A stretch of 64,000 nucleotides of DNA from Heptranchias perlo (taxonomy: Eukaryota), in the NCBI RefSeq assembly GCF_035084215.1, contig NC_090335.1, positions 7,998,001 to 8,062,000 on the forward strand, in the 5' to 3' direction. A program made the position numbers and the translations under genes. This document shows, in pieces, positions 6,746 to 64,000 of this stretch. The notes beneath the pieces were generated by a model that saw nothing but the letters and a program-made list of their open reading frames with translations, did not search any database and was not told where the DNA came from. The number at the start of each line of letters is the position of its first letter. Position 1 is the first letter of the stretch.

Positions 6746-7816
6746 TAAAAAAAACAAAATTTCCTCAAAGTCCTGTTTCTAGGACCTCGGGTGGAGAACA
6801 CCTCGTTGAAGAGTTAGTTATCCTGTAATATAAGTCAGGGTCTATGTGATCTCCTGGGCTAGTTTTGATCACCTTTGGATATCACAGAGGAATTTTCCAG
6901 ATTTTATTTCCCTAATTGTCCTACATTTTTAATCTGTTTTTTCACCTCTCCCAGGGAATTACACGGCTCTGGGTGGGTGGGGAGTATCTGTATCGAGATG
7001 CATCGGGCAGCACAACTTCATGGGATAGGCTAGATTGACCAGTTGGTCTTTTCCTGTCTGTCACTTTCCTGCACTTAACTGACTCCCAAACTCATTGCCT
7101 TCCCCATTAGGCCACTGGGGTCACAGCTACTACCACAGCCTTTGTGCAATTGGTCATTGCTCTACGCTCTCATAACATTCTGTTCTTGTCGACATTCACT
7201 TTGTTTTTATCAATAAATATATCTGCCAATTCCACACACTTCAGCAATGATTGGTAGCAGTTGTGAACACTTTTGATTCCTGAAAATGTAGACAAGAGTT
7301 CCGGTCTCTGAATGGTGGGTTGACATCCGGTGGGGTACTCGTGTCTGATGGGAGCAGAGTAACGACCCCCCCCATCATATCTATCTGGTGGTCCTGGTAA
7401 GGAGTTGCGAGTCAGGGTAACAACTGTTCATGTTAGAATGGACTCTGACACTGAAAAAACCCAGAGCATGACCGGCTGGATGGAAAGCAGTGCAAGAAAT
7501 GGGTTTCCTCTTGTACTGTTAGGCATGGAAGAGGAGGAGAAGAAGAAGACAGTGTTTGGTAAAATGAGGAAAGGAGGTAAAGGGACATGATTTGCCTGGA
7601 AAGTGCAGGTGACATTGTTCCCTGAGTATTGGGATGGCACACAGCTTGGTAGAAGCATCGCATTGGTTTGTACCACTGGAAAGCAAGTGACAGAGTGAGA
7701 AGGGTGCTGGACAGGAACTCCCTGGATTGGTTGATAACTCAAAAAGAAAGCGACCAAACTGTGGCAATGTTCACAAAAGGTGCTATGGCACTAAATTGCA
7801 GGGCCAGAACTTTTGT

Positions 7817-7889
7817 CACTCCAGATAGGATTTGAGCCCACAATTCCTGGTTGAGGAAGCCAGTGCCTTATCCATTAGGCCACTGAGGT
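7817..7889 (-). pseudogene. tRNA-Arg(CCT) pseudogene
   Basis: Reverse complement ACCTCAGTGGCCTAATGGATAAGGCACTGGCTTCCTCAACCAGG...; B-box mutated (GGCTCAAAT) and stems mismatched. Confidence 0.8.
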
Positions 7890-8261
7890 GGTATAAGATT
7901 AGTGTATGTTGCTTGGTGCTTGCAACCTGCCCCTTTGTCTCTACATAATCACTTCCAAACTTGATACCTTTTCATCGGCCATCCCTCACATTGGGCTCGA
8001 ATTTAGCAGGCCTGCGGGTTCCCAGCGGGTGGTCCTCCGGGAGCGTGGTCAACACGCTCGGCGAAATTAGTGGGTTGCCCGCGCGATCGTACCAGGCAAC
8101 ACACGAATAGGAATCAATTACCTGCTCCTCCGGGGTCCACGGCGCTGGTCTGCGCGTCGGGCGGGCTGCGCATGCGCAGTACGATCTGTCAGCTGGAGGC
8201 TCTCTAGTTAAAGGGGCAGTCCTCCACTGACAGATGCTGCAACCAATGGGACAAATTGCAG

Positions 8262-8508
8262 CATGGAGCAGCCCAGGGGGAAGGCTGCTCCCAGTTTAAT
8301 GATGCCTCACCCCAGGTATCATCAGATGGGGTGAGGAGGAGGGGGAGGACACAGATCTTCCCCCCGGCGGGCGGGAGGAAGCGGCCTGCCTCTGCCACCA
8401 AGAAGGCCTGGCTCGAGGTGGCAGAGGGGGTCACCTGCGCCACCAACATATCGCCCACCTGCATACAGTGCAGGAGGCGCTGCAATGACCGCAGTAGGTC
8501 AGCCGCAG
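8262..8508 (+). pseudogene. Harbinger Myb/SANT-like DNA-binding ORF remnant
   Basis: IFPPAGGRKRPASATKKAWLEVAEGV....SPTCIQCRRRCNDRSR fits the W..VA..V...RT..QC...NDL.R trihelix pattern; followed by a GTGAG donor. Confidence 0.8.
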
Positions 8509-9059
8509 TGAGAACACGAAGTCTTTCCCTGCACTCCGTCTGCCACAACACTGCCCCCACCCCACATCTCCTTCGGCACCGCCAACACTACTCTGTCACA
8601 TCACCCCTTATACCCACTCAAACCCCATCCTCATCTTACCTCCACCTACTCATCTCGCCAGTACTCATCCTGCCACTAACACGCGACCCAATCCTCATAC
8701 AATCTCATTGCTCCATCCCATACTCAACCTCTCGTGCATCTCCCTCACGGCCAGCCTCACTCAACCTGCCACCACCTGTGCTGCAGCCACAGGGCATGCA
8801 TCACATATGTGCAGTAGGCAGCGTAAGGCAAACGTGTCGTGAGCATGAAGGGGGTGCACAAGGGTGTCTGAGGGTTTGTCCTGGGTGTTACCTATATTGA
8901 ATTTCAGAGCAACAAACAGCACACATTATATTGACACCACCACTGCCATGTCTCCGCGAATCCTGTCCGTTGTGTCCAATAATGCCCGCTCCTGGGTATC
9001 ACTATGAGGACCCACCACTGATGCCACCCATCGTGTTACTGCAGAGTAGGTGCAGGTGT

Positions 9060-9370
9060 ATTTGCAGGGCTCTTCCGCGCAGACGACTGAGAGACATCGG
9101 CGGTGTAGCCGGCTGCACCCTGGAAGGATGCGGAGGAGAAGTTGTGGAGGGCAGTGGTGACTTTGACAGCGACAGGTAAGCAGTTGGTGCTGGGGCCAGC
9201 CAGGAGCAGCTCGGCATGAAAGAGCCTGCAGATCTCCACGACTACATGTCGAGCGAATCTGCGCCTCCGTGTGCACTGCTGTTCGGAGAGGTCCGGGGAG
9301 CTGCGCCTCGGTCTGTGGACCCTGCGGCGAGGGTAGTGCCCTCTGCGATGCGTCTCTCCCTGCGGTAGCC
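9060..9370 (-). pseudogene. Harbinger (HARBI1-like) transposase N-terminal remnant
   Basis: DLSEQQCTRR.R..RHVVVEIC.L....LPVAVKVTTALHNFSSASFQ...DVSQSS; the DDE core is absent. Confidence 0.8.
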
Positions 9371-10300
9371 CTCCCTCCTGCTGTGCAGGTGGGCGTGCAA
9401 CAACACCGTGTTGGGGGGCTCCACATCTCTGCGGCGGACGGCGTGGACTGCGAGGCTGCTGGGGCTGGTCATGCTGTTCATCCTCCGAGGGTGTCCACGC
9501 ACCACCCATCTGGCAGGTGTTGGTCTGAGGGGTTGTGCAGGGTAGGTGGGTGGTTCCTCGCACTGGGGCTGCGGTTTCGTGTCGGTCTGTCCTCTGGCTT
9601 GGCGGGGGGTGGTGGAGGGCAGGGGTTGCCCTATGTGACGCGGTGGCCTCCTGCGTGGATGAGGGCTCTCCCCCGTGGAGTGCACCTTGGCACCTGCCAC
9701 AGGCTGCTGGCTGCAACACGCCTGGTTGGAGAGAGACTGTTTCCCCCAGTGTGGGAAACTCACTGCCTTGAACCCAAAATCCCACACTTCCTCTTTTGAC
9801 AGCTGCTTCAGCTCATTAACTGACCTCAACAAGCAAGGTAAGTACTCTCAAGTGGAACCCCGCTGGCTTTAATTGCCTGCGGGATTCCCACCAGCGGGGC
9901 TTGCGCGCGCAGCCCCGCATGTCAGCGCGGTACCCGGAAGTGGGCGGGATTTCGGCGCGATCCGGTCACGTGACAGGATATCGGGATTTTTGGGGCCACC
10001 CCGCTGGAAACCCGCAGGTAACCCGACGCAAAAATCGAGCCCATTGTATCAGTTCCAAAGATCCCAGCAATGACGTGAAGGATCTGACTTGCTTTTACGT
10101 GTCAGCAATTGGTACAGTTGAGTGCTGGGCAAAATGCTGATTTTATATGAAAAACAAATGCTTTTGCAAAGATCTCCTTGTTTGCCCTGGCTGTAAGTGT
10201 CATTGATTTACAACATAGCTTCCTTCATCTAAATATTTAATATCTCTGTACTTCAGCAGTGAGGATAAACAGCTGGTTTTCACAGAGTGAAGTTGATTTT

Positions 10301-10307
10301 AAAAAAA
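10301..10307 (-). terminator. Pol III oligo-T terminator of tRNA-Arg(CCG)
   Basis: T7 run on the minus strand 7 nt downstream of the tRNA 3' end. Confidence 0.65.
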
Positions 10308-10314
10308 TCAAGGT

Positions 10315-10387
10315 CACCCCAGATGGGACTTGAACCCACAATCCCTGGCTCCGGAAACCAGTGCCTTATCCATTAGGCCACTGGGGC
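10315..10387 (-). tRNA. tRNA-Arg(CCG), apparently intact
   Basis: GCCCCAGTGGCCTAATGGATAAGGCACTGGTTTCCGGAGCCAGGGATTGTGGGTTCAAGTCCCATCTGGGGTG: 73 nt, full cloverleaf with G-U pairs only, intact A and B boxes, loop TT-CCG-GA. Confidence 0.88.
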
Positions 10388-13300
10388 CATATGATGTTAT
10401 TAGCAGCTTTGATGCACTTGGCCATTGCTCTACATTCTCACTAAATTTTACTTTGTGGCCACTCACTTTGTTTTCATCAACATATCGACCAATTCTACAT
10501 ACTTTCGCAATGATTGATAACAGTGGTGAGGACATTTGATTTCCTGAAGACAGCACAGTGGGATGATTTACAACCAGGAGATAAGGACAGAGATGCTTAT
10601 GTGCAGAACAACGCAGCCGAATAGCATAAAGATAAAGCCTGCTCCGTCCCGAAAGTTAGAGTTCTTGAGAGGACGGTCGGAAGTCCATTGCCCAGGAACC
10701 CACAGAAGTCAGATTTGATCAATTTTGTGTCTGAGGAAGTAAAACCAGGTTGTATTGATTGCTTGTCTTCTAATGTAATCTGAAGACAGTTGCATTATAA
10801 CTATAATACTGTGTGAGTCAATGTATTAAAGCTGGTTATTTTATAGCCACACAGGCTTGTATCACGGCAAAATTACTGTTGAAGGATTAACAACCCTTTG
10901 AAGCAACAGTAATGGGAAAATCCACTAACAAATGGGGTCCCTGGGTGGCCCGGAGTTTCAAAGGTTTAAAGTAGCTAATGTTGAGAGATTGACCGAGTAA
11001 TTCAGACGAGACAGAGAGGAGGGATAAGTAGTTGGAAAACGAGAAAAGGTAGACAACCCCCCAAGCTCATGAGATGAGACGGGAAGGAGGAATAGGTGGT
11101 TGTGACCGAGTGGGGTAAAGGTAGCCAACCCTCAAACCTGAGAGAGAATGAATCATGGCGATTGCACCAGATGGTTTATGTTCGACAATCCACACATACG
11201 TGGAAAAGTCATTCCGTTGAGAGAAGAGGAAAGAAATTGTGCAGGAGGACGAGGAGTTAAAATGAGTCCTTTCACAGCAGAGAGAGGCCGTAAAGGAATT
11301 ATGTAAAAATCAGATGCAAAGTATATCCAGGAGAACATAGGAACTTGTACTGTATTAGTTAAAATCTGTCAGACTTCGTGTGAGGTGGAGACTAAGATGA
11401 AGAAACTGGTAAAGGTGAAGAAAATTAAAGAGCAGAATTGGAAATCGGGAATCTTGTTGTTTCATCCACAAGAGTTAGGGAGATTGAGAGAGGAAGGTGA
11501 AATTCGGAAGGGTAGGTTGAAAGATAAAGAAGAAAGAAGAAGAAAAAGAAAGATGGAGGGACCTTCACCACACCAGGCTTGAGGACACAGACTGTGAGCT
11601 TGAGACTTTCAGTCAGTACAGAATGGAGTTAAGTCACAAACATCAGAAATTGAAATTTGGTTTGAGTAAAAAAAGGATAATCTATGATGGAACCAAGCTA
11701 CAGAATGAGTTCTTTTGTTTTCAGTGGACTGTCTCTTTAAAAAGCCTGTCCTCACTGTGAGTGCTTTCTTTTCACTGTTGCGGGCCATGGCCCCATCTTA
11801 ATGCTTGTTATGTGTTTTCCTCTTTTGTGTAATGTTAAAAAGATTTTGCATAGCTGTGAAAGCAGTAATTTCCAGTATTTTTGGAAAGGTGCACCTGAAG
11901 ATCGAACAAAACGAAAGACAATATAATTTATTGGGTTTTAGTGAGAATGTACTATATTGATAATTTTATTTGTTCTGTCTTGTGTTTAATTTTGATATTG
12001 TTGAATTAAAATTGGAGTTATTGAGGTTAACTAAACTATCAGATTGTGGAAACCAAACTTTTATTGTGGCCACAGTGAAATTCTAGTTCTTATAAATTTG
12101 AACATAAGAGTTTCAAATGCCGATCATGAGGTTATCACATGAAAATTGATATTTTGAATTCCTTAAATGCTTAATGTGTTGAGTATTGGTGAGCGTAAAT
12201 TGATCTGATTGTGGAGTTGTGTTGCATATTAGTGAGCATGTATTGATGTATAAGGAGTTAGTGTTGTGAGTCACTGTAATCGAAGAACGATATCTTGTTA
12301 TCTAGTACAGGACATCAATTTTGAAAATTTTGAGTTAATCATCTTGGTTGTACTGGAATGTGATAACTGTTAGCAAACTGACAGCATCCCTTTAATCTTG
12401 TGATTGGCTGTGGTCAGAAAAAAGTGACTGAAAAAATAAAAAGATTAATAAATGATTTTGTATCTCTATGAGAACAATTAGGAAATGTTGTGTCGTTGGA
12501 CTATCTAAGAGTTAATAAATTTTGGACATCGCTTAAATAAATGCTAAAGGCTTTAACAACATTTGGAATTTAATCTGCAATGATTTTGGATAAAAAGGCC
12601 AGGCCCAAGTACCTTTTAAAAAAAAAACTGACATGAACGAATTGAAATGCTATCCCCCGACACAAAAGGTTTTTATAAATTCATGTGAAAGCTATGCTGA
12701 CGTACGCTGCGTGAGTCTAATGATATCTGGCTCCGTCGTTTTGTTTCTGCGAAAAAGTTAAGCCCTTCCAAGGACACGGACATCTGTTTTTAATTCACCA
12801 AGCAACAACCTTTCCATTTATTTAAAATAATTGCCAAAATTTAATTGGAGATTTCCCCACGGGTGACAGAATGAAATCATGAAATCGTGAATTGACTAAT
12901 TAACCCCTTGGGCTCTCAAGAAGAGCCACAATGGATTTTCTGTGTTTCTTTTTAAACAGGGGATATGGTTTTTGGGACGGCATGAGTGTTGATGGTGACG
13001 GATTACCAAGAGTAGTTCTTTGGCATAACAGTGGATTCACAAAGTCATGGAGCAAGCATTGCTGGAAATGTGTTGGTGCAGGAAGTGATCCAGTGGTGTT
13101 AAGAATTTAAGATCTTATCCGCAGACTTCGGCATATATCAAATCTCACAGCATGGTGTCGTTTTGGATGAAGGCTTAAGACTTGAATTTTGAAAATTCAA
13201 AATTACATAGAGAAGGAAAAGCAATCATCAGCCTTGATCAAATTTCTTCTATACTTAATGAAGAATATACCAAGTTGTTTTTCCTCTTTTGAAATGTTTT

Positions 13301-14261
13301 GATTTGTTTTACTTTAACCCATTTATTTTCCGAGACAGCGTGCTATAGCTGGGGGTGAGGGGAGGTGGTTAAGATATATCCAAAAGTAATTACATAAGAA
13401 CATAAGAGATAGGAGCAGGAGTAGGTCATTCAGCCCCTCGAGCCTGCTCCGCCATTCAATGAGATCATAGCTGAGCTGATTCTGGTCTCAACTCCACTTT
13501 CCCGCCTGTTCCCCATATCCTTTGACTCTCTTGCTGATCAAAAATTTGTCTAACTCATCCTTGAATACATTCAATGTCTCAGCCTCCACCACTCTTTGGA
13601 GAAAGAATTCCAAAGGTTCACTGCCCTCTGAGAGAAGAAATTTCTCTTCATCTCCGTCTTAAACGGGCGACCCCTTATTCTGAGACTATGCCCCCTAGTT
13701 TTAGATTCCCCCATGAGGGGAAACATCCTCTCAGCATTTACCCTGTCAAGCCCCCTCAGAATCTTATATGTTTCAATAAGATCTCCTCTCATTCTTCTAA
13801 ACTCCAATGAGTATAGGCCCAACCTGTTCAATCTTTCCTCATAAGAAAACCCTTCCATACCCGGAATCAACCTAGTGAACCTTCTCTGAACCGTCTGCAA
13901 TGCAAGTATATCCTTCCTTAAATAAGGGGACCAAAACTGTACGCAGTACTCTAGGTGCGGTCTCAACAGCACCTCGTACAGTTGTAGCAAGACTTCCCTG
14001 CTTTTATAATCCATTCCCCTAGAAATAAAGGCCAATATTCCGTTTGCCTTCCCAATTACCTGCTGCACCTGTATGCTAACTTTTTGTGTTTCATATACGA
14101 GGACACCCAAATCCCTCTGTACCGCAGCATTCTGTAGTCTTTCTCCATTTATATATAATATTTCGCTTTTTTAGTTTTCCTCCCAAAGTGGATGACTTCA
14201 CATTTTCCCACATTATCTGCCAAATTTTTGCCCACTCGCTGTAACCCTTTGCAGACACTTT

Positions 14262-16313
14262 GGGCCCGATTTTAGCACCCGCTATCGGGTGCGTCCTCGG
14301 CGGGGGGGCCTCGAAAATCGTGAAATGCAGGAGCCCGACCAGATCCCGCCTCGATCCCGCCCACTTCCGGGTTCCCCGCCGACGCGCCAGCGTGCGCGCG
14401 CAGCACCCGCTGGTGGGAATCCCGCAGGCAATTAAAGCCAGCGGGATGCCACTTGACAATATTTGGTTTGGTATTTCAGGTCATTAACTGACCTGATTAA
14501 GGGACTGTGTGTGATTTTTGATCAACATGGGACTGTTTCCCACACTGGGGGAAACACTCCCAGCTCGAATGGACCTGTTGCAGCTGTCAGCCTGTGGCAG
14601 CTGCAAAGGTCCATTTGACAGGTGTTGGGGGGGAGACCCTCACCCATTGCAGGAGGCCACTCTGTCACTTGGGACAAAGTTTGGCCTCCACCACCCTCCT
14701 CCTGACGGTCAAAGTCACCAACCTGCACACTTACCCCGGGGTCCAGAGACATGTACCTACCTTGCGGACCCCCTCAGATGTACATCTTGCGGATGGGGGC
14801 CGCCGTAGCTGCAGTCATGACCTCCTCGGAGGGCGAACAGCATCACCAGCCTCGCCATCCACGCCATCCACCTCTGACACGTGGAGCTCCACAACACAGT
14901 GCTGTGACACATCCACCTATACAGCAGGAGGGAGGGCAACCGCAGAGAGAGATGCGTCGCAGAGGGCACTACCCTCGCCACAGGGTCCACAGACCGAGGC
15001 TCAGCCTCCTGGACCTCTCTGAGCAGCAGTGCACACGGAAGCTCAGAGTCACTCGACATGTAGCCGTGGACATCTGCAGCCTCTTTCATGCCGAGCTGCT
15101 CCTGGCTGGCCCGTGCACCATCTTCCTACCTGTCGCTGTCAAAGTCACCACTGCCCTCCCGAACTTCTCCTCCGCATCCTTCCAGGGTGCAACCGGGGAC
15201 ATCGCCGATGTGTCTCAGTCGTCTGCGCAGAAGAGCCCTGCAAATACACCGACACCCACTCTGCAGTGACACAATGGGTGGCATCAGTGGTGGGTCCTCA
15301 TAGTGATACCCAGGAGCGGGCATTATTGCACAAACCGGACAGGATTCGCGAAGACATGGCAGTAGTGGTGCCAATATAATGTGTGATGTGAGTTGTTCTG
15401 AAATTCAATAGAAGTAACAACCATGACAAACCCTCAAACACCCTTGTGCATCCCCTTCATGCTCACGACACGTTTGCCTTACGCTGCCTACTGCACATAT
15501 GTGATGCATGCCCTGTGGCTGCAGCACAGGTGGTGGTAGGTTGAGTGAGGCTGGCCGTGAGAGAGATGCACGAGAGGGTGAGTATGAGAGAGAGCCATGA
15601 GATTGTATGAGGATTGGGTTGCGTGGTAGTGGCGGGGTGAGTACTGGCGAGGTGAGTAGGTGCAGGTAAGATGAGGATGAGGTTTGAGTGGGTGTGAGGG
15701 GTGATGTGACAGAGTAGTGTTGGCAGCGCCGAAGGAGATGTGGGGTGGGGGCAGTGATGTGGCAGACGGAGTGTAGGGGACAGAGTAAGTGTACTCACTG
15801 TGGCTGACCTACTGAGGTCATTGGAGCGCCTCCTGCACTGTGTGCAGGTGGGCGATATGTTGGTGGTGCAGGTGACCCCCTCTGCCACCTCGAGCCAGGC
15901 CTTCCTGGTGGCGGAGGCGGGCCGCTTCCTCCCGCCCGCCGGGGGGAAGATCTCTGTCCTCCCCCTCCTCCTCACCCCATGTATTGATACCTGGGGTGAG
16001 GCATCATTAAACTGGGAGCAGCCTTCCCCCTGGGCTGCTCCATGCAGTCATCTTTGCTATTGGTTGCAGCATCTGTCAGTGGAGGACTGCCCCTTTAAAT
16101 AGAGCGCCTCCAGCTGACAGATCTTACTGCGCATGCGCAGCCCGCCCGACGCGCAGATCAGCAGCGGGGAACCCGGAGGAGCAGGTAAGTGAATCCAATT
16201 AGTGGGTTGCCTGCTACGATCGCGCGGGAAACCCACTAATTTCACCGGGCGCGTTACCAACGCGCCCGCTTGCCCATCCAACGAGAACCCGCATCCCTGC
16301 TAAAATCGGGCCC
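14262..16313 (-). mobile_element. Non-autonomous PIF/Harbinger transposon, 2052 bp, inverted relative to the 7993 copy
   Basis: Perfect 16-bp TIR GGGCCCGATTTTAGCA / TGCTAAAATCGGGCCC; TSD TTT; transposase relic at about 14950-15240 (+) and Myb-like relic at about 15797-16045 (-). Confidence 0.94.
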
Positions 16314-17950
16314 TTTGTGTCCTCCTCACAACTTACTTTTCCACTTATCTTTGTATCATCAGCAAATTTGGCCAGGTGACACTCGCTTCCTTCATCCAAG
16401 TCATTGATATGGATTGTAAATAGTTGAGGCCCCAGCACTGATCCCTGCGGCACCCCACTAATTACAGATTGCCATCCTGAAAATGACCCCTTTATCCCAA
16501 CTCTCTATTTTCTGTTCATTAGCCAATCCTCTATCCATGCTAATGTATTACCCCCAACACCATGAGCTCTTACCTTGTGCAGTAACCTTTTATGTGGCAC
16601 CTTATCAAATGCCTTTTGGAAATCCAAATACACTACATCTACTGGTTTCACTTTATCCATCCTGCTTGTTACTTCCTCGAAGAACTCTAATCAATTTGTC
16701 AAACATGATTTCCCCTTCATAAAACCATGTTGACTCTCCTTGATTTTATTTTGAGTCCCTAAATGTCCTGCTACTACTTCCTTAATAATGGATTCTAGCA
16801 TTTTCCCAGTGACCGATGTTAGGCTAACTGGTCTATAGTTACCTGCTTTCTGTCCCCCTGCTTTCTTGAACATTCCAATCCAGAATCTAGTGAATTTTGG
16901 AAGATTACAACCAATGCATCCACTATCTCTGTCGCCACTTCTTTTAAGCCCCTTGGATGCAAGCCATCAGGTTCAGAGGACTTGTCAACCTGCAGACCCA
17001 TTAGTTTGCCTGGTACTTTTTCTCTAGTGATAGTGATTGTTTTTCGATCCTCCCTCCCCTTTGCACCTTGATTATCTACTATTATTGGTATGCTTTTAGT
17101 GTCTTCTACTGTGAAGACAGATACAAAATATCTGTTCAATGCCTCTACCATTTCCATTATTATTTCCCCAGTCTCATCCTCTAAGGGACCTATATTTACT
17201 TTAGCTACCCTCTTTTTATATACTTGTAAAAGTTCTTACTGTCAGTTTTTATATTTCTTGCTCGTTTACTCTCATAATCTATTTTCTCCCTCTTTGTTTT
17301 TTTAGTCCTTTGCTGGTTTCTAAAGTTTTCTCAATTTTTGGGCTTACCACTAATCTTTGCCACATTGTATGCCTTTTCTTTTAACTTGATACCATCTTTA
17401 ACATCCTTAGTTAGCCATGGTTGGTACACCCTTCTAGTGGAGTTTTTCCTCCTTACTGGAATATATTTTTTTTGAGAGTCATAAAATATCTTTTTAAATG
17501 TCTGCTACTGCTTATCCATTGTCATACCTTCTAATCTGTTTTCCCAGTCCACTTTAGCCAACTCTGTCCTCATGCCATTGTAATTGCCCTTATTTAGGTT
17601 TAATACAGTAGTTTCAGATCCAAGATTCTCACTCTCAAACTGAATGTGAAATTCTTTCATATTATGATCACTGTTTCCTAAGGGATCCTTTACTTTGAGG
17701 TCATTAATTAATCCTGTCTCATTACCCAATACCAGATCTAAAATGGCCTGTTCCCTGGTTGGTTCTACAATGTATTGTTCTAAGAAACAGTCCCGAATAC
17801 ACTCTGAACTCAACCACAGGGCTACTTTTGCCAATTTGATTTGTCCAATCTAAATGTAGTCATGATGTGGAGATGCCGGTGATGGACTGGGGTTGACAAT
17901 TGTAAACAATTTTACAACACCAAGTTATAGTCCAACAATTTTTATTTGAA

Positions 17951-53600: not shown

Positions 53601-54243
53601 GATCCAGTTGTGTTAAGAATTTAAGATCTTATCCGCAGGCATCGGCAGATATCAAATCTCACAGCATGGTGATGTTTTGGACTAAGGCTTACGACTTGGA
53701 TTTTGAAAATTCAGAATTACATAGAGAAGGAAAAGCAGTCATCAGCCTTGATCAAATTTCTTCTATACTTAACGAAGAATATACCAAGTTGCTTTTCCTC
53801 TTTTGAAAACGTTTTGATTTGTTTTGCTTTAACCCATTTATTTTCTGAGACAGAGTGCTTATAGGGTGGGGGGTGGGGTGAGGGGGAGGGGGCTGGTGGA
53901 AATATATCCAAAAATAATTACAAACACTTCTGTCTCTACGGTAAAATCACAAAGCCTGGACATAATTGGTATCTGAAATTGGAATTGATAAGATAAATTG
54001 ATAGGTGTTGTGGACTCGAGAAGGTAAAATTTACCTGTAGTTTAAGGGGATAATCAAATTCTATTTTAAAATAAAAGGAGTCCAGTCTGAATGGTTCCTG
54101 TCCAATGCTGTGAATCAAGGAAGAAAGTATTTTGGGGGGAAATAAAATTGTACGTTGACAAGTCCTGTCAGTCCAACAATAATGTGTCTGGATTTGGGAT
54201 AATTCTGAAATGATGGAATGGGCTCAGGCACAATGTAGTGGAT
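50679..54243 (+). mobile_element. ERV relic copy f (full LTR 50679-51431, PBS 51434-51451)
   Basis: AAACA-AA-TGGTGTCCCTGGGTGGGC; 4 copies of the 41-bp unit at about 52614-52772; LYVDKSC at about 54148. Confidence 0.82.
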
Positions 54244-54516
54244 CGTTGGGTAAAATGAAGACATGCGTTAAAGGGGCAGTATTTGCCTGGAAAGTGGAGG
54301 TGACATTGTTCCCTGAGTATTGGGATGGCGCACAGCTTGGTAGAAGCATCACATTGGTTTGTGCTACTGGAAAGCAAGTGATGGAGTGAGAAGGGTGCTG
54401 GACAGGAACTGCTTGGATTGGTTGATAAGTTAAAAGGAAAGCTACCTGACTGTCATGGAATGCGGCAATGTTTACGGAAGATGCTTTGGCATTTGTTTCA
54501 TAGCCAAAAGTGCCCT

Positions 54517-54590
54517 CACTCCAGCTGGGACTTTGAACGCACAATCCCTGGTTTAGGAGGCTAGTGCTTTAGCCATTCGGCCACTGGGGC
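54517..54590 (-). pseudogene. tRNA-Arg(CCT) pseudogene
   Basis: Loop CTCCTAA retained; 1-nt T-loop insertion and stem mismatches. Confidence 0.75.
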
Positions 54591-54962
54591 TGTATGTGAT
54601 AAGAGTTTGGTGCGTGCAACTTGCCCCTTTGTCCCTATCTAGTCACTGCCAACTTTGATGCCTTTTTATGGGCCGTCCCTTTCTTTTCATACACAATCAC
54701 ATTGTATCAGTTCCAAAGATCCCAGCAATGACGTGACAGGATCTGACTTGCTTTTGTGCGTCAGCAATTGGTACAGTTGAGTGCTGGGCAAAATGTTGAT
54801 TTTATGTGAAAACCAAACGACTTTGTAGATGTTTCCGCTGGCTGTAAGTTTCAATGATTTGCAAGACAGCACTTCAGATTGAAGCTATTTGATATTTGTG
54901 TATTTGAGTAATGAGGACAAAGAGCTGGTTTTCACAGAGTGAAGTTGATTTAAAACCAAGCG

Positions 54963-55029
54963 TACCCCAGAGGGGACTCAAACCCACAATCCTAGACACC
55001 AGAAACCAATTTCTTATCCATTCGGCCAC
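54963..55029 (-). pseudogene. tRNA-Arg pseudogene
   Basis: ACCCCAGAGGGGACTCAAACCCACAATCC...TTATCCATTCGGCCAC. Confidence 0.7.
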
Positions 55030-56093
55030 AAGTTTGTTGTTGCAGCCTTGATGCACTTGGTCATTGCTCTACATTCTCGCTACATTCTCCCAGTCCTTGC
55101 GGTCACTCCCTTTGTTTTCATCAACATATCAACCAATTCCACATACTTTAGCAATTTCCTGAAGCCCCATGCTAAATGATACATTTTACTACCTTGGAAA
55201 TGTCACTGCCTATCATTAGGTTACACGTTTAAAATCTTTCCTTCAGCATGCTGCCGTTCACTTTGACAAGCACCACTACGTTGATTAGGCTTCTATTGCT
55301 GGATATATGCTCTGACTTACAATGGACCTTGATATTTGGTGAGAACTGTTTGCGGGCTGGGGACTCCTTCAGAGATTCACGAGTGTTCGTAAGGGTTCAA
55401 AAACGCACGGCAATGATGTCAATCATCGTCAAATACATTATTATGTTACTTCCACACCATGAAGATGGAGGCATTCGATGCTGCAGTGCACAGGTGGGTC
55501 TCAAGAAATCTGTGTGATTGAAGCTTTATTATTGTCAATCTGCTCACTGTTTCTGTTTACTACCTCCCCTGGCTGAGAGGAGCTAACCTCAGCTCACAGC
55601 AGGTATTGAGCCTGGCAACTGCCTGGCCTGTGCAGCTCAGTACCCCAGCACACTGTGCATTTGCCTGCTGAGTATTTTTGTAATGTGGTAGCCCAGAGAG
55701 CATTTGAAGATGGAATTTTCCAGCTTGGAGGAAGAGTATGCTCTGTATTTGGCCACTGAACCTGATAACAAGAATCATACATGTAATGTAATTGGTTGTC
55801 GACATTTCAAAGTAGCAACTGTGCCTGGGGTGTTGGGTAAAATGAAGACATGCATTAAACGGGCAATATTTGCCTGGAAACTGCAGATGACATTATTCCC
55901 TGAGTGTTGTGATGGCACACAGCTCGGTCGAAGCTTCGCATTGGTCTGTGACACTGGAAGGCAAGCGACAGAGTGAGAAGGGTGCCAGACAAGAACTGCC
56001 TAGATTGCTTGATAACTTAAAAAGAAAGCTACCAGCCTGTTGCAATGTTTACAGAAGATGCTCATACATTTTTTGCAGGAGCAGAACTTACTT

Positions 56094-56166
56094 CACTCCA
56101 GATGGAACTTGACCCTATAATCCCAAGTGTAGGAGGCTAGTGCCTTATCCATTAGCCCATTGGGGC
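56094..56166 (-). pseudogene. tRNA-Arg(CCT) pseudogene
   Basis: TAGGAGGCTAGTGCCTTATCCATTAG retained; T-arm degenerate. Confidence 0.7.
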
Positions 56167-56257
56167 TGTATGTAATAGGAGCTTGGTGCTTGAAACCTGC
56201 CCCTTTGTTTCTATTTATTTCTATCAATTCCAAAGATCCCAGTAATGACGTGACAGG

Positions 56258-59200
56258 GAGATGGCTTATCAGGGGAAAGCAGCAAGAGCCAAGTTCGTGG
56301 CACCACGGGTGGCTCTGCTGCACAGGAGGGGAGGAAGAAGAGTGGCAGGGCTATAGTGATAGGGGATTCAATTGTAAGGGGAACAGATAGGCATTTCTGC
56401 GGCAGCAAACGTGACTCCAGGATGGTATGTTGCCTCCCTGGTGCTAGGGTCAAGGATGTCGCGGAGCGGCTGCAGGACGTTCTGGAGGGGGAGGGTGAAC
56501 AGCCAGTAGTCGTGGTCCATATCGGTACCAACGACATAGGTAAAAAAAGGGATGAGGTCCTGCAAGGTGAATTTAAGGAGTTAGGAGATAAATTAAAAAG
56601 CAGGACTTCAAAGGTAGTGATCTCAGGATTACTACCAGTGCCACGTGCTAGTGAGTATAGGAACAGGAGAATAGGCAGGATGAATGCGTGGCTGCAGGGA
56701 TGGTGTAGGAGGGAGGGATTTAGATTCCTGGGACATTGGGACCGGTTCTGGGGAAGGTGGGACCTGTACAAGCGTGATGGGTTACACCCGAGCAGGACCG
56801 GGACCAATGTCCTCGCGGGGGTGTTTGCTAGTGCTGTTGGGGAAGGTTTAAACTAGAGTAGCAGGGGGATGGGAACCTGAGCGGGGAGACAGAAGGGAGT
56901 AAAGTTGAGAGCAGCAAGAGAGAGGAAGACCCAGGGGAAATCTACAATACAAATAATACAAACAGTTGTTCAAGAACAAGTGAAAGGGAAAAGCAGAAAG
57001 AAAGTGTACTTTAGGCACGACAGCTAAAGTGAAAACTAGAAGGCGTAAGGTGATTAACCCAGCATCAAAGCTGAAGGTCAGGCTAGGGTGTGTGGCCCAA
57101 CTAAGAGTTCTATATACAAATGCACAGAGTATAAGGAATAAATTAAATGAACGACAGGTTCAAATTCAAATTGGAGGGTATGACATGATAGCTATTACTG
57201 AGACATGGCTGCAGGATGGTCAGGATTGGGAACTAAATATACCGGGTTATAAGGTCTACAGGAGAGATAGGGAAAATGGAAGAGGGGGTGGAGTAGCCTT
57301 AGTGATTAGAGATGAAATCACTTCAATGATAAAGGAGGATATAACGAGAGGTAAGCAGCCAACAGAGACCTTATGGGTTGAATTGAGAAATAGAAAAGGA
57401 TTTAAGACTATAGAGGGAGTTGTATATAGGACCCCTGCACCAGCTCTGAAGTGCTAGATTGTATAAATGCAGAGATTAGAAAAGCGTGTAACAAAGGCAC
57501 AGTGGTCTTAATGGGGGACTTCAACCTTCACATAGATTGGGAAAAGCAGACTAGCAACTGTCAGAAAGGTAGTGAATTTCTTGAGTGCGTCCGGGATAGT
57601 TTTCGACAGCAGTATGGCCTAGAGGCAACAAGGGGGCAAGCCATACTAGATTTAGTAATGAGTAATGAACCAGATTTAGTTAACGGCTTAACTGTGCGTG
57701 AACAGCTATCCAATAGCGATCATAACATGATCGAGTTCAATGTAGTGTTTGAAAGGGAAAAAAATGAATTAGGTGCTAAGATTCTAGACTTGGGTGTGGC
57801 CGACTTCAATGGGATGAGACAGAGACTGTCCACGGTAAACTGGGCAAATCTGTTAATGGGTAAAATGACTGATGATCAGTGGGAAATGTTTAAAGAAACA
57901 TTTAACGTGATACAGAATCGGTTTATACCCCTGAGGGGCAAGAACTCTACTTGCCAAAAAAAACAGCCATGGAGAACTAAAGAGGTAAGGGACAGTATAA
58001 GACATAAGGAAAGGGCATACAAAAAGGCAAAAAATGGCACAGATCCTGGCGAATGGGAAAGATCAACAAAGGGTCACAAAACAGATAGTAAGAGCTACAA
58101 AGAGAGAGTATGAAAAGAAACTTGCAAGGGATATCAAAACCAATACGAAGAACTTTTATAGTTACATTAGAAAAAAGAGGGTGGTCAGGAGCAGTGTTGG
58201 CCCCTTCAAAACGGAAAGTGGGGATATTGTCGTTGACAATGAGGAAATGGTGGACATGTTGAACAATTACTTTGCGTCAGTATTTACAGTGGAAAAAGAG
58301 GATAGCATGCCGGAAATCCCAAGAAAACTAATATTGAATCGGGGACAGGGTCTCGATAAAATTAACATAAGTAAAGCAACAGTAATGAAGAAAATAATAG
58401 CACTAAAGAGTAACAAATCCCCAGGACCAGACGGTTTCCATCCCAGGGTTTTAAAGGAAGTAGGTGAGCACATTGCAGATGCCCTAACTATAATCTTTCA
58501 AAGTTCTCTAGATTCAGGAACTGACCCTCTAGATTGGAAAATTGCACATGTCACTCCGCTTTTTAAGAAAGGAAAGAGAGGGAAACCGGGGAATTATAGA
58601 CCAGTTAGCCTAACATCTGTTGTGGGGAAAATGCTGGAGTCTATAATTAAGGATGGGGTGACTGAACACCTCGAGAATTTTCAGTTAATCAGAGAGAGCC
58701 AGCATAGATTTGTGAAAGGTAGGCCGTCAATGGATGTTATTTATATGGACTTCCAGAAGGCATTTGATAAGGTCCCACATAAGAGACTGTTAGCTAAGCT
58801 AGAACCCCATGGAATCGAGGGAAAAGTACGGACTTGGTTAGGAAGTTGGCTGAGCGAAAGGCGACAGAGAGTAGGGATAATGGGTAGGTACTCACATTGG
58901 CAGGATGTGACTAGTGGAGTCCCACAGGGACCTGTCTTGGGGCCTCAATTATTCACAATATTTATTAACGACTTAGATGAAGGCATAGAAAGTCTCATAT
59001 CTAAGTTTGCCGATGACACAAAGATTGGTGGCATTGTAAGCAGTGTGGATGAAAACATAAAATTACAAAGCGATATTGATAGATTAGGTGAATGGGCAAA
59101 ACTGTGGCAAATGGAATTCAATGTAGACAAATGTAAGGTCATCCACTTTGGATCAAAAAAGGATAGAACAGGGTACTTTCTAAATGGTAAGAAGTTAAAA

Positions 59201-59933
59201 ACAGTGGATGTCCAAAAGGACTTAGGGGTACAGGTACATAGATCAATGAAGTGTCATGAACAGGTGCAGAAAATAATCAATAAGGCTAATGGAATGCTGG
59301 CCTTTATATCTGGAGGACTGGAGTACAAGGGTACAGAAGTTATGCTGCAGCTATACAAAACCCTGGTTAGACCACACCTGGAGTACTGTGAGCAGTTCTG
59401 GGCACCGCACCTTTGGAAGGACATATTGGCCTTGGAGAGAGTGCTGCGTGGGTTTACTAGAATGATACCTGGACTTCAAGGGTTAAGTTACGAGGAGAGA
59501 TTACACAAATTGGGGTTGTATTCTCTAGAGTTTCGAAGGTTAAGGGGTGATCTGATTGAAGTTTATAAGATATTAAGGGGAACAGATAGGGTGGATAGAG
59601 AGAAACTATTTCCGCTGGTTGGGGATTCTAGGAGTAGGGGGCACAGTCTAAAAATTAGAGCCAGACCTTTCAGGAGCGAGATTAGAAAACATTTGTACAC
59701 ACAAAGGGTGGTAGAAGTTTGGAACTCTCTTCCGCAAACGGCAATTGATACTAGCTCAATTGCTAAATTTAAATGTGAGATAGATAGCTTTTTGGCAATC
59801 AAAGGTATTAAGGGATATGGGCCAAAGGCAGGTATATGGAGTTAGATCACAGATCAGCCATGATCTTATCAAATGGCGGAGCAGGCACGAGGGGCTGAAT
59901 GGCCTACTCCTGTTCCTATGTTCCTATGTTCTT
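56258..59933 (+). mobile_element. Long CR1 LINE (ORF1 SGNH esterase 56356-56856; frameshifted ORF2 APE-RT, about 57100-59845)
   Basis: IGDSIVRG..CCLPGARVKD..HIGTND..DGLH; LYTNAQSI..ITETWL; MGDFN; SDHN; 603-aa RT ORF with FADDTK; tail (TTCCTATG)n; empty site GACAGG|ATCTG in paralogs. Confidence 0.96.
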
Positions 59934-60159
59934 AGGATCTGACTTGCATTAGCAATTGGTATGGTTGAGTGCTGGGCAAATTGTTGATTGTATGTGAAAA
60001 GCAAGTGGGTTTCCAGAGGTTTCCTTGCTTTCCCTGACTGTAAGTTTCATCGATCTACAAGACATCTCTCCTGTGATTGAATGATTTGATCTCTGTGTAT
60101 TTCAGCAACAATGACAAAGAGCTGGTTTACACAGAATGAAGTTGATTTAAAACCAAGCT

Positions 60160-60408
60160 TACCCCGGATGGGACTTGAAACCACAATCCATGGCTTAGGA
60201 GAACATAAGAAATAGGATAAGGAGTAGGCTATACGGCCCTCGAGCCTCCGCCGCCATTCAGTAAGATCATGGCTGATATTTGACCTCACCTCCACTTTCC
60301 TGCCCAAGATCTCTTGAATCACTTGGAGTCCAAAAATCAATCAATCTCAGTCTTGAATATATTATGAGATGCTATCGGAGGCTCGTGCCTTATCCATTAG
60401 GCCACTGG
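60160..60408 (-). pseudogene. tRNA-Arg(CCT) disrupted by two insertions
   Basis: 3' half 60160-60201 and 5' half 60377-60408 flank a CR1 tail; the 5' end is cut by a solo LTR. Confidence 0.85.
60202..60376 (-). mobile_element. CR1 3' tail inserted in the tRNA anticodon loop
   Basis: AACATAAGAAATAGG..GGAGTAGGCTATACGGCCC; GGAG duplicated at 60198 and 60377. Confidence 0.85.
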
Positions 60409-61211
60409 TGTAAGAATCCCCGTCGGAGGCCACGAAAATGATATAGCCTGGGCCTCACAGCAGAGAACCTTGGGGAGTCTCTACAATCTAGGAAAGTCTA
60501 TCACGAATCAATTGGTAACAGTTGAGTACTTTATTTGGAATAAGACAGAGTCAAGTACACGCAGAGTATGTCAAAGCGATTTATTCTGAACAACAAAGGC
60601 AAACCTCACCAGAGTGGTGTTTCGGGCAGAGTTGTATTCTGGCTCCAGCTGTTGCACGTTAGTCAACAGTGGGCCTTGGGATGGTGATGTTCACATACCC
60701 GTGGGTTACCTCCTTCTAAATTGGAGACCTTTAACCTCTCTTTATTCAACTTTGTTGCAGACCCTACAGTTTTCGTACGGCTGCAAAGCATGTAGCCATT
60801 ACTGTTTCCAGACATGGGCCTCTGTCTTGTCAAGGCCGGCTGGCAGCTGCTCGCCCTTCCTATCTCTGTTATCTCTGTACTGGGGACGACTGCCTGTCAT
60901 CTTCCCAGACTGACACAGAGAAACATTATGCTAATGAATGCTTTACAGAGGTTTCCGAAAGCACGTGCAACTATATTAATGATTATATGTTTCAGGCTAC
61001 TAAAAGCTATCATGATTAAATGTAAAACACAAATTTAAAACACACAGTTTGTTTGACTAAACTAGCTCCATAATTGTTTGGTTAACATACTAAATAGATG
61101 TACTAAATGAATCATTCGGTTAAATGTTTGTGGGTAAAAAAAAAACATACAAACAAGGTTAACTATGATTGATCATAAGTAAATGAAGTATAAACATATC
61201 ATTTCCCTTCA
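60409..61211 (-). mobile_element. Solo LTR (803 bp), unrelated to the array's LTR
   Basis: TG...CA ends (minus strand TGAAGGGAAA...GGGGATTCTTACA); AATAAA on the minus strand at about 60530; probable 4-bp TSD CTGG/CTGT; absent from paralogous units. Confidence 0.75.
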
Positions 61212-61332
61212 CTGTGACCACATGACTGTGTCAGAAGATTTCATACACTTGGTCATTGCTCGACCCTCTCACTAAATTCTACCTGTCCTTCTAGCCACTC
61301 ACCTCATTTTCATCAACAGATCAGGTGTGCTA

Positions 61333-61786
61333 TCAGCTGTGGCTCAGTTGGTCATACTCTTGCCTGAGTCAGAAGGTTGTGGGTTCATCGTCCAACTCCA
61401 GAGATATGAATGCCAAATCCAGGCTGGTGCTTCCACTATAGCACTGAGGGAATACTGTTCTGTTGGAGTTCCTGTCTTGCAGATGAGACATCAAACTAAC
61501 ACTCCATTTGCCCTCTCAGATGTATGTAAACCAGCCCAGGCACTATTTTGAAGAGGAGCAGACGACTTGTCCTCAGTGTCCCGAGCCAATATTTATCCCT
61601 CAACCAACACCGCTGAAAAAAAGAGATGATCTGGTCATTATCACATTGCTGTTTGTGGGACCTTGCTGTGTGCAAATTGGCTGTCATGTTTCCTAGATTA
61701 CAACAGTAACTACACGTTAAAACTACTTCATTGATTGTAAAGTGCATTGGGATGTCTTAAGGTTTTGAAAGGCACGATATAGTCTT
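61333..61786 (+). mobile_element. Deu-domain SINE (SacSINE1-like), near full length
   Basis: tRNA-like head TCAGCTGTGGCTCAGTTGG..GTGGGTTCA; core GCTGTTTGTGGGACCTTGCTGTGTGCAAATTGGCTG. Confidence 0.82.
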
Positions 61787-62690
61787 TATCTAATTCCCCT
61801 TACTTCCATGCAGTTGATTGATAGTTGTTCTCAGCACATTTGATTTCCTGAAGCCCCATGCTAAATGATACATTTAAATGTCATTGCCTATCATTAGGAA
61901 GCAGGTTTACAAATCTTTCCTTCAGCATGATGCCCTTCAATTTGACAAGCACCGCTATGTTGATTAGGCTTCTATTGCTGGATATAAGCTCTGAATTATA
62001 ATGGACCTTGATATTTGATAACAACTGTGAGAGCGCTTGAGAATCCATCAGAGATTCGCGAGTGTTCGTAAGGGTTCAAAAGCACAAGGCAATGATGCAA
62101 ATCATCGTCAAATACACCATTATGTTACTTCGACACCATGAAGGTGAAGGCATTCAATGCCGGAGTGTGCAAGGTGGGTCTCAAGAAATCTGTGTGATTG
62201 AAGCTTGATTATCGTCAATCTGCTTACTGTATCTGTTCACTACCTCCCGTGGCTGAGAGGAGCTAACCTCAGCTCACAGCAGGTATTGAGCCTGGCAACT
62301 GCCTGGTCTGTGCAGCTCAGTACCCCAGCACACTGTGCATTTGCCTGCTGAGTATTTTTGTAATGTGGTAGCTCAGACAGCATTTGAAGCTAGAATTTTC
62401 CAGGTTGGAGGAAGAATGTGCTCTGTATTTGGCCACTGAATCTGATAACATGAATCGTACATGTAATGTAATTGGGTGTCGACATTTCAAAGTAGCAACT
62501 GTGCCTGGGGTGTTGGGTAAAATGAAGGCAGCTTTAATGGAGCAGAATTTGGCTGGAAAGTGCAGGTGACATTGTTCCCTTAGTGTTGGGATGGTGCACA
62601 GCTTGGTGGAAACGTTGCATTTGTTTGTGCCACTGGAATGCAAGCAACAGAGTGAGAAGGGTGCCAAACAGGAACTGCCTAGATTGGTTG

Positions 62691-64000
62691 TGTAAGGACA
62701 TGGTTTGAAACAAGCATAGACAAGAATAGCATCAAGCATTGTAGCAAGAGGGTGGATGTTAAAGGGGGGACAAAGTTCAGCAGCTTTATGAGAAAGATAA
62801 AATACAGAATCCCAAGAGGTCATTGAAAGAATGCTGAGGCATTAGAGTGATCAAAACAACCAAAGTCAGGAGACAATTTGCATCAGATACTTGCTAAGAA
62901 ACCACATACTCTAAAACCTGATAACAGTGAAAGACTACATAAACAGTAGACATGATGGGGCCATGCAACACCATGAGTGAATCCACACTAACCACTATCA
63001 GATGTTTATACAACAGAGGTAAGGGATGAGACAGCTATGGATCATGTTTGGGTGTTTTCACAGAGTCAGAACAGTGGGATAATTTACAACCAGGAGATAA
63101 GGACAAAGATGATTACATGCAGAACAATGCAGCCGCATAGTGTAATGATGGGGTATGCTCCCTCCCAAGAGTTAGCATTCTCATGAAGACGGTTGGAAGT
63201 CCATTGCCTAGGCAATCCACAGAGGTCAGATTTGTTCAATTTTCAGTCCAGGGAAGTAAATTCAGGTGTATTGATTTCTTGTCATTTAATGTAATCTGAA
63301 GACAGTTGTAGTATAACTATAATACAGTGTGAATCAATCTATTAAAGCTTATTATTTTATAACCACGCAGGCTTGTATCATGCGGCAGTTATTGTTAAAT
63401 GATTAACAACCCATTGAAGCGACAGTAACGGGAAAATCCGTTAACCAATGGTGTCCCTGGATGGGCCAGAATTTTAAATGTTTAAAGTAGCTTTTGTTAA
63501 GAGATTGACTGTGTCATTTAGACGAGCTGGGAAGGAGGAATAAATAGTTGGAAGCCCAGGAAAAGTAGGCAAACTCTGTTGCCCGTGAGATGAGATGGGG
63601 AGGAGGAATAGGTGCTTGTGACCGAGAGGGCTGAAGGTAGCCACCCCTCAAACCGAAAGAGAATAAACCATGGCGAGTGCACCGGATGGTTTATGTTCGA
63701 CAATCGACACAGATGTGGAAAAGTCATTCAGGTCATGCATGCCGTGGCAAAAAGAGGAAAGGAATTGTGCAGGAGGACGAGGAGTTAAAATGAGTCCATT
63801 CCCAGCAGAGAGAGGCTGTAAAGGAATTATGTAAAAATCTGATGCAAAGTATATCCTGGAGAACATAGGAACTTGTACAGTATTAGTTAAAATCTGTCAG
63901 ACTTTGTGTGAGGCGGAGACTAAGATGAAGAAACTGGTAAAGGTGAAGAAAATTAAAGAGCAGAATTGGAAAGCGGGAGTCTTGTTGTTTCATCCACAAG
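62691..64000 (+). mobile_element. ERV relic copy g (LTR 62691-63446, PBS 63449-63466, gag-like), cut by the window end
   Basis: Same LTR start TGTAAGGACATGG; PBS TGGTGTCCCTGGATGGGC. Confidence 0.8.

What the first reader, a model, noticed from the sequence alone, without database searches (positions are those of the whole stretch)
7085..64000. tRNA-Arg gene cluster co-amplified with a fossil retrovirus as one composite tandem unit
Seen: about 22 minus-strand tRNA-Arg copies alternate with seven same-orientation copies of an LTR-PBS-gag-pol relic. The junctions are fixed. The four full LTRs start at the same nucleotide (…CTAGATTGGTTG|TGTAAGG) inside the tRNA flank, and the six copies whose 3' end is in the window all stop in RNase H and join the tRNA flank at …TTGGGTAAAATGAAG. 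Inference: a single ancient insertion and truncation became part of the repeat unit and expanded with the tRNA genes, giving a tRNA-ERV macrosatellite under birth-and-death evolution. I know of no description of this unit.
Basis: partly seen in the sequence, partly recalled or inferred. Interest (0 to 1): 0.8.

Follow-up and report, generated by a model that had tools for sequence, protein, structure and literature searches.

The report
Retrovirus relic riding a tRNA array
A broken retrovirus that landed once in a cluster of arginine tRNA genes was copied along with them 17 times, which is a clear new example of a known process, with an unproven hint that the youngest copies keep a less common arginine tRNA intact.

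Summary
The composite array is real. One internally deleted endogenous retrovirus (745-bp LTR, tRNA-Asn primer site) inserted 92 bp downstream of a tRNA-Arg gene and lost its 3' end at a microhomology with the tRNA flank. It was then amplified with the tRNA pair: 7 copies in the window, 9 more just downstream, 1 inverted copy 220 kb upstream.

Both junctions occur only in this cluster (13 and 15 exact-pattern hits genome-wide, controls 0). Array copies form one clade, and so does the host DNA in front of them.

Downstream lies a regular ten-unit 5.4-kb array, 94-99.5% identical. There one tRNA is damaged (CAU anticodon, broken B box), while the other is an intact-looking Arg(CCG) gene; the array holds 9 of 21 CCG-type genes found. 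Selection on it is only suggested and expression is untested. Primate RNU2 and the human 1q23.3 tRNA repeat are precedents.

The parts
10536..20235 (+). Element copy 1: lacks the first ~360 bp of the LTR; split at 13394-19905 by later insertions
21151..24880 (+). Element copy 2: same 5' truncation junction as copy 1, extra internal deletion, CR1-type LINE at 23241-24790
28127..32040 (+). Element copy 3 with full 5' LTR (reference copy)
28127..28872 (+). 5' LTR, about 745 bp; extent defined by the match to 3' LTRs of complete dispersed copies
28875..28892 (+). Primer-binding site complementary to host tRNA-Asn(GTT): 15-17 of 18 in six window copies, against 10-12 of 18 for the array's tRNA-Arg
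29079..29550 (+). Decayed short ORF of the element's 5' region; no family assigned, 'gag' not shown
30150..30700 (+). Element-internal minisatellite (about 41-bp unit), 1-12 motif hits per copy
30963..31059 (+). Joint of the 3.2-kb internal deletion that removed protease, RT and RNase H; also seen in dispersed short forms L095 and L098
32030..32061 (+). 3' junction: element sequence joined to the tRNA 3' flank at an imperfect microhomology, about 180 bp before an empty insertion site
32590..35275 (+). Element copy 4: lacks the first ~490 bp of the LTR, larger internal deletion
38526..42265 (+). Element copy 5 with full LTR; sister of copy 3 (shared LINE insertion point, 5.4-kb colinear block)
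50679..54240 (+). Element copy 6 with full LTR
62691..64000 (+). Element copy 7, first unit of the regular 5.4-kb array that continues to about C11:8,122,500
42538..42610 (-). Intact tRNA-Arg(CCT), identical to genes of the ERV-free cluster (A position)
10315..10387 (-). tRNA-Arg(CCG) with G37 on an Arg(CCT)-type body, all stems paired (B position)
32300..32372 (-). tRNA-Arg(CCT), 4 changes, 1 broken pair
20940..21012 (-). B-type copy with anticodon decayed to CCA
49609..49681 (-). B-type CCG copy, B box C56T, 2 broken pairs
7049..60411 (-). Span of all 22 tRNA-Arg-derived copies; the 17 not listed above are decayed
24920..28126 (+). Two ERV-free ~1.55-kb host units (flank, tRNA A, tRNA B, spacer): the unit into which the element inserted; empty sites at 24977 and 26539, filled site at 28126

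Best explanation
A passenger provirus fragment inside a tRNA-gene tandem unit. Step 1 (shown): the host unit is a ~1.55-kb repeat with two minus-strand tRNA-Arg genes; it exists without the element in a sister cluster at C11:6.47-6.58 Mb and in the window. Step 2 (shown): one copy of a dispersed, already internally deleted ERV family with a tRNA-Asn primer site inserted 92 bp downstream of the A gene, facing it. Step 3 (junction shown, mechanism inferred): a deletion or ectopic recombination at a ~15-bp imperfect microhomology joined the element's interior to the flank of a downstream empty unit, removing the 3' LTR and the 3' target duplication. Step 4 (inferred): unequal crossover or similar DNA-level duplication amplified element plus tRNA pair. 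An old round gave the irregular window copies (87-94% identical) and one inverted copy. A later round gave ten 5.3-6.0-kb units (94-98% identical), and a recent 33-kb duplication is 98.7-99.5% identical. The element cannot transpose itself and is most likely neutral filler and recombination substrate. Most tRNA copies decayed, as in birth-and-death evolution.
For: Junctions confined to this cluster (13 and 15 hits, controls 0). Array copies monophyletic in two element segments: 17 array vs 7 dispersed, 99/96; 16 vs 9, 100/99. Host spacer before 13 filled sites is one clade against 14 empty ones, 99/96. 10 empty and 4 filled sites in the window; all 31 aligned sites in the sister cluster empty. 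Complete dispersed copies have two LTRs, a polypurine tract and a 5-bp target duplication, all absent at the array's 3' ends. Internal deletion shared with dispersed L095 and L098. Periods 5316-6000 bp and the unit identity matrix. Later insertions interrupt single units only.
Against: Deep nodes among window copies are unresolved, so tree congruence between host and element parts is shown only for the main clades. The inverted copy groups with the young clade in its 3' segment but not in its 5' segment, which implies gene conversion or mosaic units beyond simple unequal crossover. Near-identity of units 2/8 and 3/9 could be an assembly duplication. No read-level or cross-species confirmation was obtained.
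Confidence: 0.88

Rival explanations
1. Selected expansion: the young 5.4-kb array was favoured or is kept because each unit carries a working tRNA-Arg(CCG) with G37, and the ERV fragment hitch-hiked. This adds to the best explanation rather than replacing it.
For: In nine consecutive young units the B gene has CCG, G37, intact A and B boxes and a T-run 3' of the gene; 8 of 9 have no broken stem pair. The A gene has C35A and C56T in 9 of 9. The array holds 9 of 21 tRNA-like CCG pattern hits, and 9 of 12 with G37. B-type genes of the ERV-free sister cluster are mostly decayed. 6 of 7 B changes are structurally tolerated, P 0.02-0.03, post hoc.
Against: The nine genes descend from one recent ancestor, so they are one observation. 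One fixed change on the stem branch is not below neutral expectation (P 0.12-0.29), and B versus A gives Fisher P 0.066. The gene-versus-flank test is as low for the damaged A genes as for B. The last unit's B gene has decayed to CCA. At least 12 other CCG-type genes exist outside the array, including an independent gene on C26. No expression data.
Confidence: 0.2
2. Site-specific retroelement: the family targets this position in the tRNA flank and inserted there repeatedly, as Dewa or Dada elements do in fish tRNA arrays.
For: All full LTRs start at the same base. tRNA-targeting elements exist in fish (PMC3706591, passages). Another young ERV sits in the same cluster at 7.776-7.784 Mb.
Against: All copies share one 3' truncation, have no 3' LTR or target duplication, and form one clade with their host flank. 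14 of 15 10-kb stretches around dispersed relatives contain no tRNA gene; the one call is a 92-nt tRNA-Phe. Empty sites remain abundant.
Confidence: 0.02
3. The LTR-to-LTR unit (LTR, element interior, tRNA pair, spacer, next LTR) is itself a non-autonomous retrotransposon that captured tRNA genes and amplified by copy-and-paste, as conjectured for RNU2.
For: In tandem the unit is bounded by two LTRs and keeps a primer site. The family has captured host sequence before (ERLEC1 piece). The idea is raised for RNU2 in 10.1101/2025.11.08.687349 (passages).
Against: No polypurine tract precedes the next LTR in the array, unlike dispersed 3' LTRs. No composite copy occurs outside the cluster. Duplicated blocks span several units (33-kb offset).
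Confidence: 0.03
4. The regular array is partly an assembly artefact (false duplication of haplotypes).
For: Units 2/8 and 3/9 are 99.5% and 99.2% identical; a 14.8-kb block repeats at 98.7%.
Against: The other unit pairs differ by 2-6%, two units carry private insertions with target duplications, and the 264-kb region has no N. This could affect at most about three units, not the finding.
Confidence: 0.07

Closest known systems
Primate RNU2 macrosatellite (U2 snRNA array; 11-kb Old World monkey unit with part of an ERVK13 provirus, 6.1-kb ape unit with a solo LTR). Source: 10.1101/2025.11.08.687349, passages read
   Same: A small-RNA gene tandem array whose repeat unit took up a provirus once and amplified it by concerted evolution; contiguous expansions of variants.
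   Different: Here tRNA genes, not U2. One LTR plus interior, truncated at a microhomology rather than flanked by two LTRs or reduced to a solo LTR. The element fills roughly 70% of the unit. Many gene copies are pseudogenes, and the array is only a 114-kb edge of a larger ERV-free cluster.
Human 1q23.3 tRNA VNTR (7.3-kb unit, five tRNA genes) and its mouse counterpart. Source: PMC4041453, passages read
   Same: tRNA-gene macrosatellite with an ERV-derived piece in every unit, and LTR-rich surroundings.
   Different: There the LTR fragment is 5.7% of a GC-rich unit with five different tRNA genes. Here a 3.5-3.9-kb LTR-plus-interior relic dominates an AT-rich unit with two Arg-derived genes, one with a changed anticodon.
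Target-specific elements in fish tRNA arrays (Dada DNA transposons, Dewa). Source: PMC3706591, passages read
   Same: A mobile element at a fixed position in multicopy tRNA loci.
   Different: Those insert repeatedly, each with a target duplication. This is one insertion copied by DNA duplication, and its dispersed relatives are not near tRNA genes.
Helenus/Ajax TRIMs. Source: PMC10886601, abstract only
   Same: LTR elements associated with tRNA-like sequence.
   Different: Their tRNA-like sequence lies inside the LTR and they disperse by transposition; here the tRNA genes are host genes outside the element.

Membership tests
Endogenous retrovirus (family level, dispersed relatives) | Two LTRs with TG...CA ends, polypurine tract, short target-site duplication | tested here: met
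   L103 and L104: LTR pairs 85.7% and 87% identical, purine tract before the 3' LTR, 5-bp duplication in L104
Endogenous retrovirus (family level, dispersed relatives) | tRNA primer-binding site after the 5' LTR | tested here: met
   15-17 of 18 bases match host tRNA-Asn(GTT) in six window copies
Endogenous retrovirus (family level, dispersed relatives) | Protease, RT, tether and RNase H in retroviral order | tested here: met
   L105: PF13650, PF00078, PF17917, PF00075 in that order
Endogenous retrovirus (family level, dispersed relatives) | Placement in a named ERV class by RT phylogeny | not tested
   No RT tree with reference viruses was built. 'Class I / epsilon-like' is a recalled resemblance only.
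   RNase H lies in the deleted 3.2 kb; copies end about 1.4 kb further 3'
   No Pfam hit in 12 frames; no usable Atlas hit for the open form of the ORF in L105
Macrosatellite / tandem gene array with a passenger ERV (RNU2-like) | Head-to-tail multi-kb units of high identity | tested here: met
   Ten units, nine periods of 5316-6000 bp, 94.4-99.5% identity; the window part is older and irregular
Macrosatellite / tandem gene array with a passenger ERV (RNU2-like) | ERV part descends from one insertion and is co-inherited with the gene unit | tested here: met
Macrosatellite / tandem gene array with a passenger ERV (RNU2-like) | Copy-number variation between individuals | not testable with these tools
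   The listed holders of more than half the words are one sample; no read depth was obtained
Macrosatellite / tandem gene array with a passenger ERV (RNU2-like) | Each unit carries a functional, expressed RNA gene | tested here: inconclusive
   B genes look intact in the young units, A genes do not; expression not tested
Target-specific insertion element (Dewa/Dada-like) | Independent insertions at one target, each with a target duplication | tested here: not met
TRIM with tRNA-derived LTR (Helenus) | tRNA-like sequence inside the LTR | tested here: not met
   No tRNA hit within 28127-28872

The most novel reading that the evidence does not exclude
An ERV-bearing repeat unit became the vehicle that rescued and multiplied an anticodon-shifted isoacceptor, a tRNA-Arg(CCG) with G37 built on an Arg(CCT) body. 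The array would now supply the largest block of this genome's CGG-reading tRNA genes (9 of 21 found; 9 of 12 with G37), with array copy number tuning CGG decoding, while the partner gene in each unit died after a change to a CAU anticodon.
Probability: 0.2. Interest if true: 0.65.

Novelty: new member of a known kind. Interest (0 to 1): 0.42.

Why it matters
It is an unusually complete record of how a provirus fragment becomes part of a multigene repeat unit. The empty ancestral unit, the single insertion, the truncation, old irregular copies and a young homogenised array all survive on one chromosome, so the neutral ERV part can serve as an internal clock for turnover and selection of tRNA genes. 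It also warns annotators: ARAGORN calls nine 'tRNA-Met(CAT)' genes here that are damaged Arg bodies. If the CCG genes are expressed, it would be a case of isoacceptor supply shaped by a selfish-DNA-laden macrosatellite.

Tried and rejected
Pfam on four array copies in three frames: no retroviral family. ESM Atlas on the short 5' ORF of L105: no usable hit, which shows neither absence nor novelty. tblastn of array copies against integrase-bearing loci only recovered family members and LINEs. An integrase query hit only L102 among nine family loci and gave only a 13-aa, E 0.43 match in the window. My first impression that the array holds most CCG genes (9 of 12) shrank to 9 of 21 with a broader pattern. 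Ten of those 31 hits were set aside as not tRNA: nine had no ARAGORN call, one was not fetched. In the gene-versus-flank test one of 14 comparisons (sis6557687) was out of register and ignored; the test did not separate A from B. The Fisher table miscounted one A change and was redone (P 0.066). Bacterial promoter scan of the LTR: irrelevant to a vertebrate, nothing above chance. No read or contig lay was obtained, so copy number, expression and presence in other species stay open. Earlier scan findings: none in three look-ups. Literature: eight searches, listings only except the four papers cited, found no description of this array or of the ERLEC1 capture. The library lacks most subscription papers, and I did not read supplements or repeat databases, where the family may already be named.
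Full report
SETTING. The window is G000:C11:7,998,001-8,062,000 in a 3.25-Gb assembly. No call named the organism. The LINE tails look to me like those of cartilaginous fish, which is recalled, not tested.

OBSERVATION. A BLAST of the best tRNA gene gives 23 minus-strand hits, that is 22 copies, as one gene is split by an insertion. ARAGORN genes, one of them outside this family; Rfam passes 9. Only 42538 and 10315 keep all 21 stem pairs. Seven element copies lie on the plus strand: four with a full LTR (28127, 38526, 50679, 62691), two sharing one 5' truncation (10536, 21151) and one with another (32590). Six 3' ends map to the same position of a long relative, L105:7182-7187.

THE ELEMENT. 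Genome searches return many dispersed relatives at 73-88% identity (only 40 of 928 and 40 of 1432 candidates were scored). I fetched 15 stretches around 14 of them. L103 and L104 are complete, with LTR pairs 85.7% and 87% identical, a purine tract and, in L104, a 5-bp target duplication. The LTR is about 745 bp. The primer site matches host tRNA-Asn at 15-17 of 18 bases in six window copies and the array's tRNA-Arg at 10-12, so the tRNA-Arg neighbours are not the primer. L105 carries protease, RT, tether and RNase H. All of these lie within L105 2754-5991, which the array copies lack; dispersed L095 and L098 show the same gap, so the deletion predates the insertion. An RNase H query from a neighbouring provirus hit L105 (E 3e-11), L093 and L091 but no array copy. 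The copies therefore end about 1.4 kb 3' of RNase H and 1.5 kb before the 3' LTR. The lost 3' part holds a captured piece of the host ERLEC1 gene: PF07915 in 4 of 5 dispersed copies, E 2.7e-34 to endoplasmic reticulum lectin 1. What the retained interior once encoded is unresolved.

THE HOST UNIT AND THE JUNCTIONS. The LTR begins 92 bp downstream of the A gene's 3' end. The window has 10 empty and 4 filled versions of this site. All 8 aligned sites upstream (7.90-7.99 Mb) and all 31 in a sister cluster at 6.47-6.58 Mb are empty, and no element piece was found in that cluster. At the 3' end the element's own sequence resembles the flank motif over about 15 bases, and the array sequence switches from one to the other there. 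A microhomology-mediated deletion or recombination into a downstream empty unit is the simplest reading (inferred). Exact patterns find 13 5' junctions and 15 3' junctions in the genome, all between 7.785 and 8.122 Mb of C11, with 0 control hits; two decayed window junctions escape the second pattern.

EXTENT AND HISTORY. Downstream the unit becomes regular: ten LTR starts from 8,060,691 to 8,109,974, periods 5316-6000 bp, whole-unit identity 94.4-99.5%, with a 14.8-kb block repeated 33,040 bp away at 98.7%. Nothing of the unit was found between 8.1225 and 8.162 Mb. One inverted copy with the same 3' junction lies at 7.785 Mb, on the opposite-strand arm of the tRNA cluster. The total is 17 copies. 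Array copies form one clade in the 5' region (17 vs 7 dispersed, 99/96) and the 3' region (16 vs 9, 100/99). Mean identity is 90.7% among window copies, 97-98% among downstream copies and 86-89% to dispersed copies. The host spacer in front of 13 filled sites is also one clade against 14 empty ones (99/96), and the nine young units group at 100/100 in both spacer and LTR trees. Only copies covering 80-85% of each segment entered the trees. Deep nodes are open, and the inverted copy is mosaic (91% to the young clade in the 5' segment, 98% in the 3' segment), which points to conversion as well as unequal crossover. Repeated targeted insertion is rejected: shared truncation, monophyly, and no tRNA call in 14 of 15 stretches around dispersed copies. 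Retrotransposition of the composite is unlikely: no purine tract before the next LTR and no dispersed composite.

THE tRNA GENES. The intact Arg(CCT) core has 49 exact hits, 46 on C11 and only one inside the ERV-bearing array. In the nine young pairs the A gene always has C35A (anticodon CAT; ARAGORN calls it Met), a broken anticodon-stem pair and C56T in the B box. From established knowledge of Pol III promoters these are probably silent. The B gene has CCG, G37, intact boxes and a following T-run; 8 of 9 have no broken pair. G37 is the usual base next to such anticodons (recalled). B-type genes predate the insertion, and in the sister cluster most have decayed. A broad CCG pattern gives 31 hits, 21 tRNA-like, 9 of them in the array; with G37, 9 of 12. 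These are pattern counts, not a census. Evidence for selection is weak: 6 of 7 B changes tolerated (P 0.02-0.03, post hoc), B versus A P 0.066, stem-branch test P 0.12-0.29, and no separation in the gene-versus-flank test. Expression was not tested.

COMPARISON. It works like primate RNU2, where the baboon 11-kb unit is reported to carry part of an ERVK13 provirus (10.1101/2025.11.08.687349, passages), and like the human 1q23.3 tRNA VNTR, each unit of which holds an LTR fragment (PMC4041453, passages). It is not a target-specific element of the Dada or Dewa kind (PMC3706591, passages), nor a Helenus-type TRIM (PMC10886601, abstract). Eight literature searches showed no description of this locus, within the limits of the library.

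VERDICT. A real, well-resolved composite array and a new member of a known kind. Single insertion, truncation and DNA-level co-amplification: 0.88. The functional Arg(CCG) reading: about 0.2. Interest 0.42.

Noticed in passing
L105:7721-7960 (G000:C14) and L098, L102, L103: Dispersed copies of the family carry a captured fragment of the host ERLEC1 coding sequence (PF07915 in 4 of 5; E 2.7e-34 to PDB 8kes_E). The array copies are truncated before it.
   Followed up: partly
L011-L015 (C11:8,064,636-8,108,625): Nine tRNA-Arg bodies with a CAT anticodon that ARAGORN calls tRNA-Met; all have C56T and a broken anticodon-stem pair.
   Followed up: partly
C11:7.49-7.72 Mb (L143-L148), 6.51-6.55 Mb, 5.58 Mb: Nine Arg(CCT)-type genes with a CCG anticodon but A37: further anticodon shifts in the ERV-free cluster.
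   Followed up: partly
L164-L177 (C11:6.468-6.581 Mb): Sister tRNA-Arg array without the element; six copies have a CTT anticodon on the Arg body (C35T).
   Followed up: no
L163 (C38:23,217,942): A solitary intact-looking B-type Arg(CCG) copy with only short flank similarity, on another contig.
   Followed up: no
C11:7,775,737-7,784,319 (L107-L108): A different, younger ERV (LTRs 97.9% identical; RNase H, integrase and envelope-like Pfam hits) lies in the tRNA flank next to the inverted composite copy.
   Followed up: partly
C11:8,110,640-8,118,672 and 8,082,337-8,083,016: An 8-kb LTR element (LTRs about 98-99% identical) and a 680-bp solo LTR, each inserted into the LTR of one array unit with a short target duplication.
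   Followed up: partly
L102 (C2:63.338-63.346 Mb): Recombinant: the family's interior combined with other LTRs (93% identical), an integrase remnant and an envelope-like stretch.
   Followed up: no
window 56211-59930: Nearly full-length CR1-type LINE: esterase ORF1 (PF13472), endonuclease and RT.
   Followed up: partly
window 7987-10004 and 14300-16319: Two inverted 2-kb GC-rich copies (83% identical) of one element; resembles a Harbinger-type transposon by recall, no Pfam hit.
   Followed up: no
window 46740-47039: hAT transposase C-terminal remnant (PF05699).
   Followed up: no
C23 and several small contigs: 176 exact hits of a tRNA-Asn 3' pattern, dozens spread along C23: a tRNA-Asn-rich chromosome.
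   Followed up: no
C11 between 7.79 and 7.88 Mb: The tRNA-Arg cluster switches strand here: plus at 7.40-7.77 Mb, minus at 7.88-8.12 Mb.
   Followed up: no
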